From the NCBI GenBank assembly GCA_035354435.1, contig DAOQAY010000090.1, forward strand, positions 1 through 11,929: a stretch of DNA of 11,929 nucleotides, written 5' to 3'. Source of the stretch: a bacterium. Lineage in GTDB: Bacteria; UBP6; UBA1177. The notes under the pieces are model-generated. The model saw only the letters and a program-made list of their open reading frames with translations. It searched no databases and was not told the DNA's origin. Shown in pieces: positions 4,574-8,751 of this stretch. Numbering within the stretch: position 1 is the stretch's first letter; the number at the start of each line of letters is the position of its first letter. The position numbers were made by a program, and so were the translations under genes.

Positions 4574-4660
4574 AGATCCCATATTTCAAACAAATTCATT
4601 TTTTAAATTGATAATCAAACATCAAAGTTTAGAATATCCTGAATTGATTATTGAAAAATT

Positions 4661-4687
4661 GTAGGGGCGAGATTTATCACGCCCTTT
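4661..4687 (+). repeat. Left copy of a 27-bp inverted-repeat pair (GTAGGGGCGAGATTTATCRCGCCCTTT).
   Basis: Its reverse complement recurs at 6676-6702 with 26/27 identity (A/G at one position). Each copy is itself a GC hairpin. Confidence 0.7.
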
Positions 4688-4689
4688 TT
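4661..4689 (+). terminator. Rho-independent terminator of the Kazal-like lipoprotein gene.
   Basis: tAGGGGCG-agatttatca-CGCCCTt forms a 5-7 bp GC stem with a 10-nt loop, followed by TTTTT at 4685-4689. It lies 88 nt after the stop codon. Confidence 0.6.
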
Positions 4690-4772
4690 GAGTGGATGTT
4701 TAGATGTCGGACATTACTGAAGGGTTTGAAAGAATTAAATGAAAATAGGAGTAATGTTGTGGAGAGAAGGTG

Positions 4773-5741
4773 ATGGTAAGCGAAGAACAATCAAAAAGGA
4801 ATGCAAACATTAGCAGAGAATTATTATTAAAATCGGATTATTTTAAAGACATCGTTAGTTTTGCAGAATATTTGAGAAATTCGCCAGTAATGAACGAATT
4901 TTTGAAGTTCAGGCAGGATTTACAAAAATCTATAGAACCCGTTCTGTCAATGATTCAAAAGATTCAAGACACCGCCAGACCTTATTTGTTGAAAGCAATT
5001 CCTACATTGAAATATTTTGTAATTAGAGACAGTTATTTCTATATTTCAGATGATTGTTTTTTAAAAGAATTGGAAGATAGATACTCAAACACTATAGATA
5101 AAAATATTCTTTTAAACTTTATTGAAGAATTTTATTCCAGAAATAATTATGAAGAGATGTGCAGATTAATTGATGAATTGGACAGTTTCGAGCTTATTGA
5201 AAAAAGGATTCACATAATAAAAAGTGTAAAATCTGTGATTTCAAGTGGTTTAAAAGACACGGATATTGCAAATGTTGTGATACCTGTGATTATTTCGCAG
5301 TTAGATGGAGTAGTTAAAGACTTTTACATTAAGCTGGATCCAGAGATTAGTAAAAAGAAGATATTAAAACATAAAAATGTATTAAGAGAAAATCCCCTAA
5401 TAAACGACATTTCCTTTTCTAATTATATAAATATTCTTCATCCTATTTTCTATCTATTTGAGTTTGAAAATGGCATTAAAAACGAAACGAAAAAAAACGA
5501 AAACAATCACGAAGAATATTTTATTGAAAAAGCTACAGAGGAAGAATTAGAAAATTATGTTTTGAATCGAAATGGAATCATGCATGGAGAAAAAGTAGAT
5601 TACGGCAAAAAAATTGAGTTGATAAGAGTGGTTTTATTTTATGATACAGTTGTTAAATCTGTAACAAATGCAATAAATGATATAAATAAGAAAATATTGG
5701 AAAATAATGAAGAAATAAAAATCGTTGAGGGCGAGAAGTGA
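4773..5741 (+). CDS. Hypothetical protein with a C-terminal HEPN-type Rx4H motif. Candidate RNase effector (Abi/toxin-like).
   Basis: About 322 aa. RBS GGAGAG at 4761-4766, ATG at 4773, and an alternative GTG at 4770. Eyeball GC about 30%. Motif LNRNGIMHGE at nt 5568-5585 fits the HEPN R-[NHQ]-x3-H signature. No Walker A/B motif is seen. There is a 1-nt overlap with the downstream gene. Confidence 0.6.
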   Translation: MVSEEQSKRNANISRELLLKSDYFKDIVSFAEYLRNSPVMNEFLKFRQDLQKSIEPVLSMIQKIQDTARPYLLKAIPTLKYFVIRDSYFYISDDCFLKELEDRYSNTIDKNILLNFIEEFYSRNNYEEMCRLIDELDSFELIEKRIHIIKSVKSVISSGLKDTDIANVVIPVIISQLDGVVKDFYIKLDPEISKKKILKHKNVLRENPLINDISFSNYINILHPIFYLFEFENGIKNETKKNENNHEEYFIEKATEEELENYVLNRNGIMHGEKVDYGKKIELIRVVLFYDTVVKSVTNAINDINKKILENNEEIKIVEGEK

Positions 5742-6583
5742 TGATGGAATCAAAGCTTAGAAATTTGTTAAGATTTGAAGCACAGGAAATAAAAATGTCT
5801 TTTGAAAAGGCGAGTATTGAAGGTCAAGGAACGCCGCAAGAAATTGCTGACCGTAGAGAAGCCGCTTTTGTCTCTTCCTTCTTAAAAAAATATTTTCCTT
5901 TTCCGTATAGGATTGAAAAAGGAAATATTATTGATAGCTATAATAACAGAAGCAATTCAATAGATTGTATTATATTAAACCCATCCCATCCTTACACAAT
6001 AGATCCCAAAAATGAAAGAGCTTCAATAATATTTGCTGATGGTGTCGATTGTGCAATAGAAATAAAGCCAGATCTTGCTAATAACCATGAATTAATTAGA
6101 AGTCTAGATCAGATTAGAAGTGTGAAAAAGTTAAGACGCAAAAGAGACGGATTATTGTTGAAAGGCAAATATAATGATCATCAATTGCTCACAGCGAAAA
6201 CAATTCCTTCTTTTATTTTTGCAGATAGAACATATGTCGATTTAAGGTTATTAATTAGTCAAATTGTAGAATACTTTATAAAGGAAAGAGTTCCTTATGA
6301 CGAGCAGTTTGACTATATCGTTATAAACAATAGAGGTCTCATATTCAATTCAAGAAAGGACTTTTATTGTGATCTCAAACCAACTGAAGGAATTTGTTTT
6401 GCTGAAACACAAGAAGATACAATTGCTACATTTTTATTGTTGCTTAACAATCTGCCAAAATCAGAACCAGCAATTAGCGAGAGTGTTTTGAGCTTTTACC
6501 TTGATAATAGTTTGTATTCTGACAAATTGAAGACCTTTCAAGATATTAACGAAAAAATGCATGCTGTTTTAGGTAAACCTTGA
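5741..6583 (+). CDS. Hypothetical protein with a candidate PD-(D/E)xK (restriction-endonuclease-fold) nuclease motif.
   Basis: About 280 aa. The ATG at 5741 overlaps the TGA of gene A (gTGATGatg), with alternative starts at GTG 5738 and ATG 5744. Strand-turn-strand SIIFAD-GVD-CAIEIK has D at 6038-6040 and E-x-K at 6059-6067. It is preceded by GTPQEIADRRE (helix Glu) and SIDCIIL. There is no nucleotidyltransferase (MNT) motif. Eyeball GC about 30%. Confidence 0.6.
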   Translation: MMESKLRNLLRFEAQEIKMSFEKASIEGQGTPQEIADRREAAFVSSFLKKYFPFPYRIEKGNIIDSYNNRSNSIDCIILNPSHPYTIDPKNERASIIFADGVDCAIEIKPDLANNHELIRSLDQIRSVKKLRRKRDGLLLKGKYNDHQLLTAKTIPSFIFADRTYVDLRLLISQIVEYFIKERVPYDEQFDYIVINNRGLIFNSRKDFYCDLKPTEGICFAETQEDTIATFLLLLNNLPKSEPAISESVLSFYLDNSLYSDKLKTFQDINEKMHAVLGKP

Positions 6584-6595
6584 GCGTCCTTCTTT

Positions 6596-6644
6596 TGATT
6601 CACAGCACATTCCTCTATAATTTCCCCATAGCGAATCTTGGAAG
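6596..6644 (+). repeat. Copy 1 of a duplicated junction segment (TGATTCACAG-cacattcctctata-ATTTCCCCATAGCGAATCTTGGAAG). It contains a perfect TATAAT at 6616-6621.
   Basis: It aligns to 6740-6773 (TGATCACACAG-ATTTACCATAGCGAAATCAAGAAG) with a 14-bp indel that removes most of the TATAAT. Possible -35 elements are TTGATT (15-nt spacer) or TTTTGA (17-nt spacer). Confidence 0.5.
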
Positions 6645-6675
6645 AAAAAGGGAAAACAAATCCAAATTCAAAGAG

Positions 6676-6702
6676 AAAGGGCGCGATAAATCTCGCCCCT
6701 AC
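6676..6702 (-). repeat. Right copy of the 27-bp hairpin repeat, in inverted orientation.
   Basis: The minus strand reads GTAGGGGCGAGATTTATCGCGCCCTTT, followed by CTC rather than a T-run. Confidence 0.7.
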
Positions 6703-6714
6703 GGAAATTCAACC

Positions 6715-6736
6715 GCAAATTCTCTTTAGTAAATAA
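6715..6736 (+). repeat. Direct repeat DR1 (GCAAATTCTCTTTAGTAAATAA).
   Basis: An identical 22-mer sits at 7717-7738, which is the 3' end of the dinD-like CDS (...TANSL*). The DR1 reading frame also encodes ...TANSL* but shows no further similarity upstream. Confidence 0.7.
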
Positions 6737-6739
6737 TCT

Positions 6740-6773
6740 GATCACACAGATTTACCATAGCGAAATCAAGAAG
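6740..6773 (+). repeat. Copy 2 of the duplicated junction segment.
   Basis: See copy 1. It lies immediately downstream of DR1 and upstream of the dinD-like promoter region (TTGACT at 6779-6784). Confidence 0.5.
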
Positions 6774-6858
6774 TTAGATTGACTTTTAAGAAGTATTCTA
6801 TATTGTTTTCCATGTTCTGGGCTAAATATATGGCAATATTTGCAACAAGGAGTCTTAA

Positions 6859-7731
6859 ATGGACAGAAGGCTTATCCAGTCAATGAAATCAATATTTGAT
6901 GAACTTACAAAAAAAATAAATGAGGAAAATATTGAGTTCTGGTTCGCCAGAGAGATCATGGAACATCTGGGATATGCTCGCTGGGAAAATTTTCTGACAG
7001 CCATTAACCGTGCGATTTATTCTTGTATATCAACAGGTACAGATCCAGAAGACCATTTTCGTGGAGTAAAGAAAATGGTTAATATCGGTAGTAGCGCAAC
7101 AAGAGACATAGATGATTTTATGCTTACTCGTTACGCATGCTATTTAATTGCTCAAAACGGCGATCCGAGAAAAGAGGAAATTGCTTTTGCTCAAAGTTAT
7201 TTTGCTTTCCAGACAAGAAAACAGGAAATTATTGAAGATAGAATGCAGCTTCAGTTTCGTATTGAAGCCAGGGAAAGACTAAGAGAATCAGAAAAAACAC
7301 TGTCACAGAATATTTATGAAAGAGGTGTTGATGATGATGGTTTTGCTAGAATAAGATCTAAAGGTGATGCAGCACTATTTGGTGGTAATTCAACTCAGAT
7401 GATGAAGGATAAATTCGGGATTACACAGTCACGGCCTCTAGCTGATTTTTTGCCGACATTGACAATTGCTGCAAAAAATCTTGCGACTGAAATGACAAAT
7501 CATAATGTATTGGAAGAGGATTTAAAAGGCGAAGAATCAATAACTGATGAACATGTGCAGAACAATAAAAGTGTCCGCGAAATGTTGGAAAAACGAGGAA
7601 TTCAACCTGAGAGTCTTTCTCCAGAAGAGGATATTAAAAAACTTGAGCGACGAGTAAAATCAGAAGAAAAAAAATTGGCAAGACAATCTGGTAAATTGCC
7701 AAAAAATAAAACCACTGCAAATTCTCTTTAG
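6859..7731 (+). CDS. dinD: DNA-damage-inducible protein D family protein (DinD-like).
   Basis: 290 aa. The blocks EFWFAREIMEHLGYARWENF, HFRGVKKMVNIGS, LTRYACYLIAQNGDP, AQSYFAFQTRKQE and the C-terminal IKKLERRVKSEEKK track my recollection of E. coli DinD (EFWSARELAPLLDYRDWRNF, LSRYACYLVVQNGDP, GQTYFAIQTRRQE, IKQLENSVKITEKK). RBS AAGGAG at 6848-6853. Eyeball GC about 40%. Confidence 0.85.
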   Translation: MDRRLIQSMKSIFDELTKKINEENIEFWFAREIMEHLGYARWENFLTAINRAIYSCISTGTDPEDHFRGVKKMVNIGSSATRDIDDFMLTRYACYLIAQNGDPRKEEIAFAQSYFAFQTRKQEIIEDRMQLQFRIEARERLRESEKTLSQNIYERGVDDDGFARIRSKGDAALFGGNSTQMMKDKFGITQSRPLADFLPTLTIAAKNLATEMTNHNVLEEDLKGEESITDEHVQNNKSVREMLEKRGIQPESLSPEEDIKKLERRVKSEEKKLARQSGKLPKNKTTANSL

Positions 7732-7738
7732 TAAATAA
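7717..7738 (+). repeat. Direct repeat DR2, identical to DR1 and overlapping the dinD-like stop codon.
   Basis: Identical 22-mer, 1002 bp downstream of DR1. Confidence 0.7.
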
Positions 7739-7744
7739 ATTATC

Positions 7745-7768
7745 CATCCTTCGATGAACTCAGGATGA
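7745..7768. terminator. Weak hairpin between the convergent dinD-like and lipoprotein genes. It is a candidate bidirectional terminator.
   Basis: CATCCT at 7745-7750 and AGGATG at 7763-7768 form a 6-bp stem with a 12-nt loop. There is no clear U-tract on either side. Confidence 0.2.
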
Positions 7769-7807
7769 ATAGCAAATTCAGCCACTTATTTTGAAGGTTG
7801 AAAGTTT

Positions 7808-8751
<944 letters not shown>

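What the first reader, a model, noticed from the sequence alone, without database searches (positions are those of the whole stretch)
6715..7738. 22-bp direct repeats bracket a 1002-bp DinD-family gene unit. The downstream repeat is the gene's own 3' end.
GCAAATTCTCTTTAGTAAATAA occurs at 6715-6736 and at 7717-7738. The second copy encodes the last residues and the stop of the dinD-like ORF (...TANSL*). The first copy lies upstream of the dinD-like promoter and also reads ...TANSL* in frame, but nothing further upstream resembles dinD. Several events could produce this pattern. Site-specific integration (att core) would do so, as would tandem duplication followed by deletion. A cassette array in which successive units end in the same sequence is a third possibility. 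In any of these cases the DinD unit would be a discrete, separately acquired module next to the HEPN/REase cassette.
Basis: seen in the sequence. Interest (0 to 1): 0.55.

Follow-up and report, generated by a model that had tools for sequence, protein, structure and literature searches.

The report
Repeat-bracketed mobile dinD gene module
The same 22 bases really do sit on both sides of a roughly 1-kb dinD gene; they mark the joint where this widely transferred gene was spliced into a variable spot of an uncultured bacterium's genome, by a known but mechanistically unexplained route.

Summary
GCAAATTCTCTTTAGTAAATAA occurs exactly twice (6715-6736, 7717-7738). It extends to 24/25 and is present in 8 independent assemblies.

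The ORF between the copies is a true DinD (NCBIfam 368 bits against a cutoff of 242). Family conservation stops at P281 (7701). The tail KNKTTANSL* is not conserved, and its last five codons (four residues and the stop) lie in repeat 2. So the repeat completes the gene, rather than being the gene's native end.

Repeat 1 with its left flank is resident DNA. A relative (L108) has it once, beside the same REP remnant. Another relative (L115) has only 39 nt between the two flanking genes, so window 4574-7807 is all accessory.

In about 14 of 80 dinD loci from diverse Bacteria and Archaea, dinD is bracketed by locus-specific direct repeats of 16-387 bp. In one case an empty allele proves a 44-bp target duplication, and the right copy again supplies dinD's last codons.

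Best reading: this is the joint scar of a transposase-less "insertion with target duplication", a mode described for restriction-modification genes.

Caveat: the 6750-6826 region also matches a relative, so the left edge of the insert is ambiguous. It is a new member of a known kind, of moderate interest.

The parts
4661..4687 (+). REP-like element (GTAG plus a GC-rich hairpin). It is the left member of an inverted REP pair and, followed by TTTTT, is a likely terminator of the upstream Kazal-like gene.
   Evidence: (I1). The same REP family occurs in relatives L109, L115 and L108.
4773..6583 (+). Neighbouring two-gene cassette of very low GC: a 322-aa protein with no family hit and a 281-aa DUF6602/NucC-like PD-(D/E)xK nuclease. 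It was inserted inside the REP pair and is a separate acquisition from dinD.
   Evidence: The cassette is absent from L108, L109 and L115. No direct repeats flank it.
6676..6702 (-). REP-like element, the right member of the inverted pair. Together with 6615-6675 it is shared with relative L109.
   Evidence: L109 1881-1952 matches window 6620-6692 at 90%.
6703..6714 (.). 12-nt spacer between the REP and repeat 1. It is resident sequence.
   Evidence: L108 2274-2319 matches window 6693-6737 at 91%, E 5e-12.
6715..6736 (+). Direct repeat copy 1 (T1), the resident copy. It extends to 6712-6736 at 24/25.
   Evidence: An orthologous single copy sits beside the REP remnant in L108.
6750..6826 (+). 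Leader region P1, with a promoter-like site TTGACT-16-TATTGT at 6779-6806. It is homologous to the region upstream of the broken REP-associated transposase gene in L109. It is either resident DNA or was brought in from a related donor.
   Evidence: promoter-like site. (local score 56; 0 of 2000 shuffles reach it).
6859..7731 (+). dinD gene (290 aa; Bro-N domain plus a helical C-terminal part). The family-conserved part ends at P281 (7699-7701). The tail K282-L290 (7702-7728) is not conserved.
   Evidence: NF008573, 367.7 bits, cutoff 242; PADLOC PDC-S13.
7717..7738 (+). Direct repeat copy 2 (T2) at the 3' joint of the dinD module. It supplies codons 287-290 and the stop. It extends to 7714-7738.
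   Evidence: DNA similarity to the closest dinD (L022) ends at 7703.
7739..7787 (.). 49 nt of unresolved origin between T2 and the conserved 3' flank of the collagen-like gene. It contains an imperfect hairpin (7742-7770).
   Evidence: no significant similarity to L108, L022 or L109. Homology with L009 resumes near 7788-7794.

Best explanation
The 22-bp repeat (24/25 when extended) is the duplicated joint left when a roughly 1-kb dinD module was installed at a pre-existing resident sequence, T. T lies 12 nt from a REP hairpin, in a variable intergenic hot spot between two convergent core genes.

Copy 1 is the resident T. Copy 2 lies exactly where the imported dinD coding sequence gives out, a few codons after the conserved ...SGKLP. 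The ORF therefore reads on into T and takes its last residues and its stop codon from it.

[quoted passage not shown] In this mode a DNA segment without defined ends is joined at two points of the target that lie some tens to hundreds of bases apart. A joint guided by short homology on one side and an illegitimate joint on the other would give the same result. Either way, the stretch between the two points ends up on both sides of the insert.

Consequences:
- dinD has a lineage-specific 9-residue tail.
- dinD is probably transcribed from the promoter-like site at 6779-6806.
- The flanking repeats allow precise loss or tandem amplification by repeat-by-repeat recombination.

Shown: the repeat itself, the residency of copy 1, the accessory nature of the whole 4574-7807 stretch, the family-wide repeat pattern, and one empty-site-proven case.

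Inferred: that the window's event was of this same kind, and its molecular steps.
For: 1. The repeat is exact, non-random and fixed in 8 assemblies.

2. Copy 1 plus its left flank is orthologous to a single copy in relative L108, beside the same REP remnant. L108 lacks the two-gene cassette and has no dinD in the ~660 nt that its contig covers beyond T (91% over 46 nt).

3. Relative L115 has only 39 nt (one REP hairpin) between the Kazal-like and collagen-like genes. L109 and L009 carry other cargo there. The site is therefore an insertion hot spot.

4. DinD conservation stops at P281, and tails differ in every homologue. DNA similarity to the closest dinD ends at 7703.

5. Of 80 dinD loci from diverse Bacteria and Archaea, about 14 have locus-specific direct repeats of 16-387 nt (85-100% identical) bracketing the gene.
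- Controls: repeats of 20 nt or more in 9 of 63 real loci against 2 of 187 cross-locus pairings (Fisher p 9e-5). At shifted positions, 1-4 of about 55 loci, nearly all with 13-18 nt. Inverted matches were rare.

6. In several loci one repeat copy is part of an intact host gene and the other is a fragment: the hsdM 5' end in L075, the deacetylase 3' end in L064, the 3' end of a Bro-N paralogue in L043.

7. Empty-site proof. L116 and L117 carry the same SNF2-DUF4391-methylase operon without dinD. L116 4747-4790 (44 nt) occurs on both sides of an 884-bp dinD insert in L056. There too the right copy supplies dinD's last two codons and the stop.

8. No integrase, transposase or tRNA gene is present in the window.

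9. This mode of insertion is documented for restriction-modification genes (PMC2853133).
Against: 1. 6750-6826, between copy 1 and dinD, is significantly similar to the region upstream of a broken REP-associated transposase gene in relative L109. A simple 22-bp target duplication with the insert starting at 6737 requires this leader to have come from a related donor. Otherwise the insert starts near 6827, and copy 2 duplicates something about 100 nt away from the left joint.

2. The right flank of copy 2 (7739-7787) cannot be matched to the sequence after T in L108. No true empty allele of this exact site was found.

3. A T-like sequence (19/22 plus one indel; 81.6% over 38 nt including flanks) lies upstream of the closest dinD homologue, in a different locus (L022). 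This hints that T may travel with dinD rather than being only a target.

4. At 22-25 bp the repeat is below the 30-bp threshold used in the published definition.

5. My control was positional. It did not use other horizontally transferred gene families.
Confidence: 0.55

Rival explanations
1. Segmental or tandem duplication of a resident leader (T-x-P), with later decay. In one version, dinD was inserted downstream of P1 with a long duplication of more than 110 nt. In another, a T-P-dinD unit was duplicated in tandem. In both, the right-hand copy was later eroded so that only its first 22-25 nt survive intact.
For: P1 (6750-6826) looks resident because it matches L109. Long duplications of 126-387 nt flank dinD elsewhere. 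The 12-mer ATAGCAAATTCA after copy 2 recalls the start of P. [quoted passage not shown]
Against: 22/22 identity in T is hard to reconcile with the absence of significant similarity immediately after it. Post-T1 against post-T2 scores 26, and 86 of 500 shuffles do as well. Post-T2 against L109 is reduced to a 12-mer once the collagen-gene flank is excluded (54 of 1000). This history needs at least two events plus a very uneven decay.
Confidence: 0.2
2. T is an attachment or crossover core. A circular or tandem dinD unit carrying T recombined with the resident T, either through a trans-acting site-specific recombinase or through RecA acting on about 25 bp of identity. This is Campbell-type integration. 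T would be attB in L108 and attL plus attR in the window.
For: Identity is confined to a sharp core with dissimilar arms. T is single-copy at the orthologous place in L108. A T-like element is the only sequence besides the ORF that is shared with the closest dinD locus, L022. There it lies on the other side of the gene, as a circular permutation would predict.
Against: - No integrase or recombinase is present in the window, and none appears among the Pfam families on record for the called genes of the 19 kb of the contig that was read.
- T has no hairpin or attC-like structure.
- Repeats flanking dinD in other genomes are unrelated in sequence and come from the local target. The family as a whole does not use a fixed core.
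- L022 has no second T.
- The arm comparisons are too short to assign.
Confidence: 0.12
3. Copy 2 is a short templated patch. It would be filler DNA copied from a nearby template during an illegitimate joining event, or a later gene-conversion tract, and so unrelated to target duplication.
For: Copy 2 sits exactly at a junction. Copy 1 lies about 100 nt from the alternative left junction (near 6827). Identity is perfect while the neighbouring sequence is unrelated.
Against: There is no direct evidence. The parallel case L056, with an empty allele, shows a genuine target duplication with the same ORF-completing geometry.
Confidence: 0.08
4. Chance, or independent selection of a functional motif such as an operator or a terminator part.
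For: T is AT-rich. Exact 22-mer hits exist in unrelated freshwater contigs.
Against: 0 of 200 shuffles of the window gave even one match. T has no stable structure. No Rfam family or terminator-like site was found. Two identical 22-mers placed exactly at a gene-module boundary are not expected by chance.
Confidence: 0.02

Closest known systems
[quoted passage not shown] 2000, as cited in Furuta, Abe and Kobayashi 2010, PMC2853133)
   Same: An accessory, defence-linked gene unit with no integrase or transposase and no terminal inverted repeats. It is flanked by direct repeats that are single-copy local sequence in genomes lacking the insert. Repeat length varies from case to case. Gene fusion can occur at the joint. 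For dinD this is shown with an empty allele in L056 against L116 (44 bp).
   Different: The cargo is a single dinD gene, not a restriction-modification system. The window's repeat is 22-25 bp, below the authors' 30-bp cut-off. For the window itself no perfect empty allele was found, and the left edge of the insert is ambiguous.
Integrative islands and prophages with an att core that duplicates the 3' end of a target gene (tRNA-type integration)
   Same: A direct repeat brackets the inserted unit, and one copy forms the 3' end of a gene.
   Different: Here the gene completed by the repeat is the cargo gene, not the target gene. No integrase or tRNA gene is present. Repeats at other dinD loci differ in sequence.
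Integron gene cassettes (attC-bounded promoterless ORFs)
   Same: A compact single-ORF unit, inserted into arrays or operons, and sometimes using host start or stop signals.
   Different: There is no IntI and no attC-like imperfect palindrome. The boundaries are not fixed relative to the ORF: 5 nt inside the ORF to 629 nt upstream on the 5' side.
Homology-facilitated illegitimate recombination during DNA uptake (PMC3240628, abstract), and transformation-generated merodiploids (PMC3784515, abstract)
   Same: They join foreign DNA with one homologous and one illegitimate joint, or bridge two chromatids. This could leave a duplicated stretch on both sides of an insert.
   Different: Anchors described experimentally are much longer than 22-25 bp (from my own knowledge). 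This is not demonstrated for dinD or for this organism.
REP/RAYT systems (REP elements and REP-associated tyrosine transposases)
   Same: The insertion site is beside GTAG-hairpin REP elements. A relative has a broken RAYT gene at the place where the window has dinD.
   Different: The 22-mer is not a REP. RAYT-type HUH enzymes do not make target duplications (from my own knowledge). No RAYT gene is present in the window.

Membership tests
DinD (DNA damage-inducible protein D, NCBIfam NF008573) | Full-length match to the family model above its curated cut-off | tested here: met
   367.7 bits against a cut-off of 242. Residues 3-280 match profile positions 3-287 of 288.
DinD (DNA damage-inducible protein D, NCBIfam NF008573) | N-terminal Bro-N DNA-binding domain | tested here: met
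   PF02498, E 1.6e-11, residues 20-111.
DinD (DNA damage-inducible protein D, NCBIfam NF008573) | SOS (LexA) regulation, as for E. coli dinD | not testable with these tools
   The LexA motif of this uncultured lineage is unknown. Only a 6-N6-6 palindrome (6733-6750) and a sigma-70-like site (6779-6806) were seen. Identity to E. coli DinD is only about 34%.
Insertion with long target duplication (criteria of PMC2853133) | The flanking direct repeats align with one single-copy sequence in a genome that lacks the insert | tested here: inconclusive
   Window: copy 1 and its left flank align with a single copy in L108, but the right flank of copy 2 does not align. Sister case: fully met for L056 against L116 and L117.
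Insertion with long target duplication (criteria of PMC2853133) | No mobility gene (integrase, transposase) in or beside the inserted unit | tested here: met
   No such Pfam or NCBIfam hit among the window ORFs, and no tRNA gene.
Insertion with long target duplication (criteria of PMC2853133) | Duplication longer than 30 bp | tested here: not met
   The window has 22 bp exact and 24/25 extended. Other dinD loci meet the criterion, with 38-387 bp.
Site-specific (att) integration | A cognate tyrosine or serine recombinase encoded nearby | tested here: not met
   None in the window, and none among the Pfam families on record for the called genes of the 19 kb of the 25-kb contig that was read. The rest of the genome could not be searched.
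Site-specific (att) integration | The same core sequence at independent insertions of the element | tested here: inconclusive
   A T-like sequence lies next to dinD in L022. However, about 14 other dinD loci have unrelated, target-derived repeats.
Integron cassette | An attC imperfect palindrome at the cassette end, and intI nearby | tested here: not met
   The T region has no hairpin of its own; the weak fold of 6705-6770 rests on the adjacent palindrome (-7.2 kcal/mol, z -2.2). No integrase is present.
Classical IS or transposon | Terminal inverted repeats, a transposase, and a fixed-length short target duplication | tested here: not met
   No inverted repeats at the ends of the unit. No transposase. 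Across loci the repeat length varies from 16 to 387 nt and the insert ends are not fixed.
REP element (for the neighbouring 27-nt inverted pair) | 5' GTAG followed by a GC-rich hairpin, repeated in the lineage and linked to a RAYT gene | tested here: met
   GTAGGGGCGAGATTTATC[A/G]CGCCC, hairpin energy -11.1 kcal/mol. Copies occur in L108, L109 and L115. The spliced L109 ORF hits NF047646, REP-associated tyrosine transposase, at E 1.7e-11. This is below the cut-off, as expected for a broken gene.

The most novel reading that the evidence does not exclude
The highly conserved dinD clade (62-84% amino-acid identity from Methanothrix to Pectobacterium) may be a selfish single-gene mobile unit of about 0.9-1 kb. 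It would spread across Bacteria and Archaea, land preferentially inside defence operons (BREX, type I and type III restriction-modification), and integrate without a transposase or defined ends while duplicating 16-387 bp of target. DinD's own DNA-binding or RecA-modulating activity might promote the illegitimate joint. The window's 22-mer would then be one footprint of a new kind of mobility, and T (also next to dinD in L022) a preferred landing or crossover sequence in this lineage.
Probability: 0.12. Interest if true: 0.8.

Novelty: new member of a known kind. Interest (0 to 1): 0.45.

Why it matters
dinD has been known as an SOS gene for decades, yet its function is poorly understood. It is now listed as a candidate phage-defence gene (PADLOC PDC-S13).

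This work shows that one dinD clade is accessory and hyper-transferred. It is repeatedly found spliced into defence operons with target duplications. One case is proven by an empty allele.

That extends the unexplained 'insertion with long target duplication' route from restriction-modification systems to a solitary gene. A 1-kb unit is a compact and tractable model for working out the mechanism.

It also explains why DinD C-terminal tails are so variable: at least some are read-through into the joint.

For this window specifically, the result sorts 3.2 kb into two independently acquired modules sitting in a REP-marked hot spot.

Tried and rejected
- Exact 22-mer scan of metagenome contigs. 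Four contigs from two unrelated contexts matched. None has dinD. The window's own organism is not in that collection. These are chance hits, although one shows 33/36 identity to 6703-6737, which I could not explain.
- Degenerate T pattern in viral contigs. 39 hits with unrelated flanks and no dinD nearby.
- dinD loci in viral contigs. 8 loci, none with flanking repeats.
- Plasmid search. Only distant dinD genes, no usable allele pairs.
- E. coli. dinD is present or absent between yicC and yicG, but as a substitution of 1160 nt for 77 nt without repeats. That gene is only about 34% identical to this clade, so it is not a model for it.
- A 'P2' copy of the leader after repeat 2, and a T copy in L109. 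Both looked plausible by eye but failed shuffle tests once shared flanks were excluded.
- Direct repeats around the neighbouring two-gene cassette. None found.
- tRNA genes, Rfam families and intrinsic terminators. None found.
- AlphaFold model of DinD. pLDDT was 51, too poor for a fold search, so none was run. No solved structure exists.
- L047, L072 and L081 were dropped from the count of target duplications. Their repeats are paralogue fragments or dispersed REP-like or palindromic elements.
- Literature. Nothing was found on dinD mobility or on PDC-S13.
Full report
**1. The observation**

GCAAATTCTCTTTAGTAAATAA occurs at 6715-6736 and 7717-7738 and nowhere else in the window. This holds even at 3 mismatches, and none of 200 dinucleotide-preserving shuffles gave a single match. 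Ungapped, the repeat is 25 nt with one mismatch (D8). With a 3-nt indel, weak similarity runs about 10 nt further left.

ORF 6859-7731 ends inside copy 2 (...T-A-N-S-L-stop). The window is a stretch of a metagenome-assembled genome, GCA_035403905.1, contig DAONGB010000040.1. Eight independently assembled contigs of the same species carry both copies unchanged. The repeat is therefore real and fixed.

**2. The gene**

The ORF is a true DinD. It scores 367.7 bits on NCBIfam NF008573 (cut-off 242), has a Bro-N domain, and is the best match to PADLOC candidate PDC-S13.

Its homologues are extraordinarily conserved and widely scattered. Identity is 73-84% among the top 120 database clusters. It is 62-77% in 80 species spanning Proteobacteria, Verrucomicrobiota, Planctomycetota, Bacillota, Hydrogenedentes and the archaea Methanothrix, Methanimicrococcus and Methanolapillus. 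This is a signature of rampant horizontal transfer.

Conservation ends at ...SGKLP (P281, window 7699-7701). After that every homologue has a different tail of 1-20 residues. The window's tail KNKTTANSL is unique. DNA similarity to the closest dinD (L022, 81.5%) stops at 7703. The last codons are thus not a native, conserved 3' end of dinD.

**3. The site**

Orthologues of the upstream Kazal-like gene led to four related organisms.
- L115: the Kazal-like and collagen-like genes converge with only 39 nt, a single REP hairpin, between them.
- L109: the gap holds a cluster of REP elements and a broken REP-associated tyrosine transposase gene.
- L009: the gap holds a small winged-helix gene and a nucleotidyltransferase-like gene.
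- L108: the Kazal-like gene is followed by half a REP, the 12-nt spacer and one copy of T (ACAAATTCTCTTTAGCGAAATAA). L108 2274-2319 matches window 6693-6737 at 91%. It lacks the two-gene cassette, and a different gene follows T.

So window 4574-7807 is entirely accessory, and copy 1 with its left flank is resident DNA.

Base composition separates two modules. The cassette at 4700-6600 has 27-33% GC and the dinD unit about 36%. The flanking core genes have 40-50%. The cassette lies inside an inverted REP pair (4661-4687 and 6676-6702). That pair exists without the cassette in L109.

**4. The family-wide pattern**

For each of the 80 dinD loci I compared the DNA upstream and downstream of the gene. 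About 14 loci, representing about 12 independent events, have direct repeats bracketing dinD. Lengths are 16-387 nt and identities 85-100%. The sequences are different in every lineage.

Controls:
- Shifted pseudo-gene positions gave 1-4 hits in about 55 loci, nearly all of 13-18 nt.
- Pairing the upstream flank of one locus with the downstream flank of another gave 2 of 187 with 20 nt or more, against 9 of 63 for the real pairs (Fisher p 9e-5).
- Inverted matches were rare.

The repeats are pieces of the local target:
- the first 131 nt of hsdM with its leader (L075);
- the last 38 nt of a deacetylase gene, with the insertion exactly at its stop codon (L064);
- the 3' end of a Bro-N paralogue (L043);
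- the ribosome-binding site and ATG of the next gene (L037/L063);
- the start of a methylase gene (L056/L046).

Inserts measure 876-1522 nt. Their ends are not fixed relative to the ORF. Many lie inside defence operons: BREX brxC|dinD|pglX, type I hsdM|dinD|hsdS, and type III-like operons.

**5. Proof in one case**

L116 and L117 carry the same SNF2-DUF4391-methylase-Res operon as L056 (91.6% and 88.5% DNA identity over 4.1 kb), but without dinD. L116 4747-4790 (44 nt, the start of the methylase gene) is present once in L116. In L056 it is present twice (5934-5977 and 6862-6905), on either side of an 884-bp dinD insert.

The right copy supplies the last two codons and the stop of dinD. This is the same geometry as in the window. 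[quoted passage not shown] Its mechanism is unknown. Such repeat-flanked units are reported to amplify (PMC2853133).

**6. Applying this to the window, and what does not fit**

The simplest reading is a 22-25 bp duplication of resident T around an insert spanning 6737-7716. Two results complicate it.

First, 6750-6826, which lies between copy 1 and dinD and contains a promoter-like site at 6779-6806, is significantly similar to the region upstream of the broken transposase gene in L109 (score 56; 0 of 2000 shuffles). There are two ways to read this.
- This leader came in with dinD from a related donor. L108, the closest relative, has no recognisable P after T.
- The leader is resident. Then the real insert starts near 6827, and copy 2 repeats something 100 nt away from the left joint.

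Second, a T-like element is the only sequence besides the ORF that is shared with the closest dinD locus, L022. There it lies 62 nt upstream of the gene. It matches copy 2 with its flanks (81.6% over 38 nt; score 49; 0 of 2000) slightly better than it matches copy 1 (score 39). That could mean a common ancestry of T-leader-dinD. It could also mean a circular or tandem intermediate, or a preferred crossover sequence.

The right flank of copy 2 (7739-7787) matches nothing significantly. The exact history therefore cannot be fixed. What is solid is that copy 1 is resident, that copy 2 sits at the module's 3' joint, and that this joint gives the ORF its end.

**7. Mechanism and rivals**

I put 0.55 on a joint scar of transposase-less insertion. 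This covers either a target duplication between two staggered joining points or a joint guided by the roughly 25-bp identity on one side and an illegitimate joint on the other.

The rivals:
- 0.20: a longer duplication of the resident T-P leader, or a tandem duplication, later eroded. Perfect identity in T beside unrelated sequence argues against it.
- 0.12: a true att or Campbell-type crossover core.
- 0.08: a templated filler or a gene-conversion patch.
- 0.02: chance or a functional motif.

No integrase, transposase, tRNA gene, Rfam family, terminator-like site or stable structure is associated with T.

The DinD model was too poor to use (pLDDT 51). Its predicted mostly helical C-terminal part gives no hint of a nuclease or recombinase, but that is weak evidence.

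**8. Verdict**

The direction of the gene-end argument has to be reversed. The best category is a known but unexplained insertion mode, of which this is a short-repeat example.

The wider result is new as far as I could find in the literature searches. One dinD clade behaves as a hyper-mobile solo gene that is often repeat-flanked, with one case proven by an empty allele. That is the part worth following up.

Noticed in passing
window 4661-4687 and 6676-6702, enclosing 4773-6583: Two REP-like elements (GTAG plus hairpin; 27 nt; 96% complementary) in inverted orientation enclose a very low-GC two-gene cassette: a 322-aa protein with no family hit and a DUF6602/NucC-like nuclease. Relative L109 has the same REP pair about 140 nt apart without the cassette. 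The cassette was therefore inserted into a REP doublet. No direct repeats flank it.
   Followed up: partly
L109 1800-2685 (relative of the window organism): A cluster of at least five REP copies, and a REP-associated tyrosine transposase gene broken by REP insertions. It lies where the window has dinD. The spliced ORF hits NCBIfam NF047646 at E 1.7e-11.
   Followed up: partly
L115 1155-1193; L009 51-922; L108 2249-2977: The same intergenic spot between the Kazal-like and collagen-like genes is empty (39 nt, one REP) in L115. In other relatives it holds different cargo: a winged-helix gene plus a DUF2204-like nucleotidyltransferase gene in L009 (the winged-helix protein gives the PADLOC PDC-M05A match), and a lipoprotein gene with collagen-like repeats in L108. 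It is a small insertion hot spot.
   Followed up: partly
window 8367-8564 (inside the collagen-like/DUF7478 gene, 7808-8641, minus strand): An array of 9-nt units encoding G-D/N-T repeats. Its length differs between assemblies of the same species; L005 is about 146 nt longer.
   Followed up: no
L018/L019/L020 (= viral contigs L120/L133), around the 22-mer: Large freshwater contigs listed as viral carry the exact 22-mer in a 31-nt gap between two genes. Similarity to window 6703-6737 extends to 33/36. There is no dinD nearby. This is probably chance, given an AT-rich 22-mer in a huge database, but the extra flank identity is unexplained.
   Followed up: partly
L112 (E. coli K-12, 5541-6700) against L113 (strain SaT040): E. 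coli dinD lies between yicC and yicG and is an accessory gene. 4221 of 5425 complete genomes cover at least 80% of the K-12 locus. SaT040 has 77 unrelated nt where K-12 has 1160 nt. No flanking repeats are present. One strain (H26) has BRO/DnaD pseudogene remnants at this site.
   Followed up: partly
L055, L075, L081, L023, L056 (dinD loci in other genomes): This dinD clade is repeatedly embedded inside defence operons: between brxC and pglX of BREX, next to or between hsdM and hsdS, upstream of a type III Res gene, and between DUF4391 and the methylase of an SNF2 system.
   Followed up: partly
window 6733-6750: A perfect palindrome, AATCTG-N6-CAGATT, starts in the last bases of repeat 1, upstream of the promoter-like site of dinD. 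It is a possible operator.
   Followed up: no
L089 230-3123 and L043 5246-7019: In some genomes the repeat-flanked unit holds dinD plus extra genes: a DUF3427 gene and a 161-aa ORF in L089, and a gene with a DUF1016 N-terminal domain in L043. The inserted segments are therefore not always single-gene.
   Followed up: no
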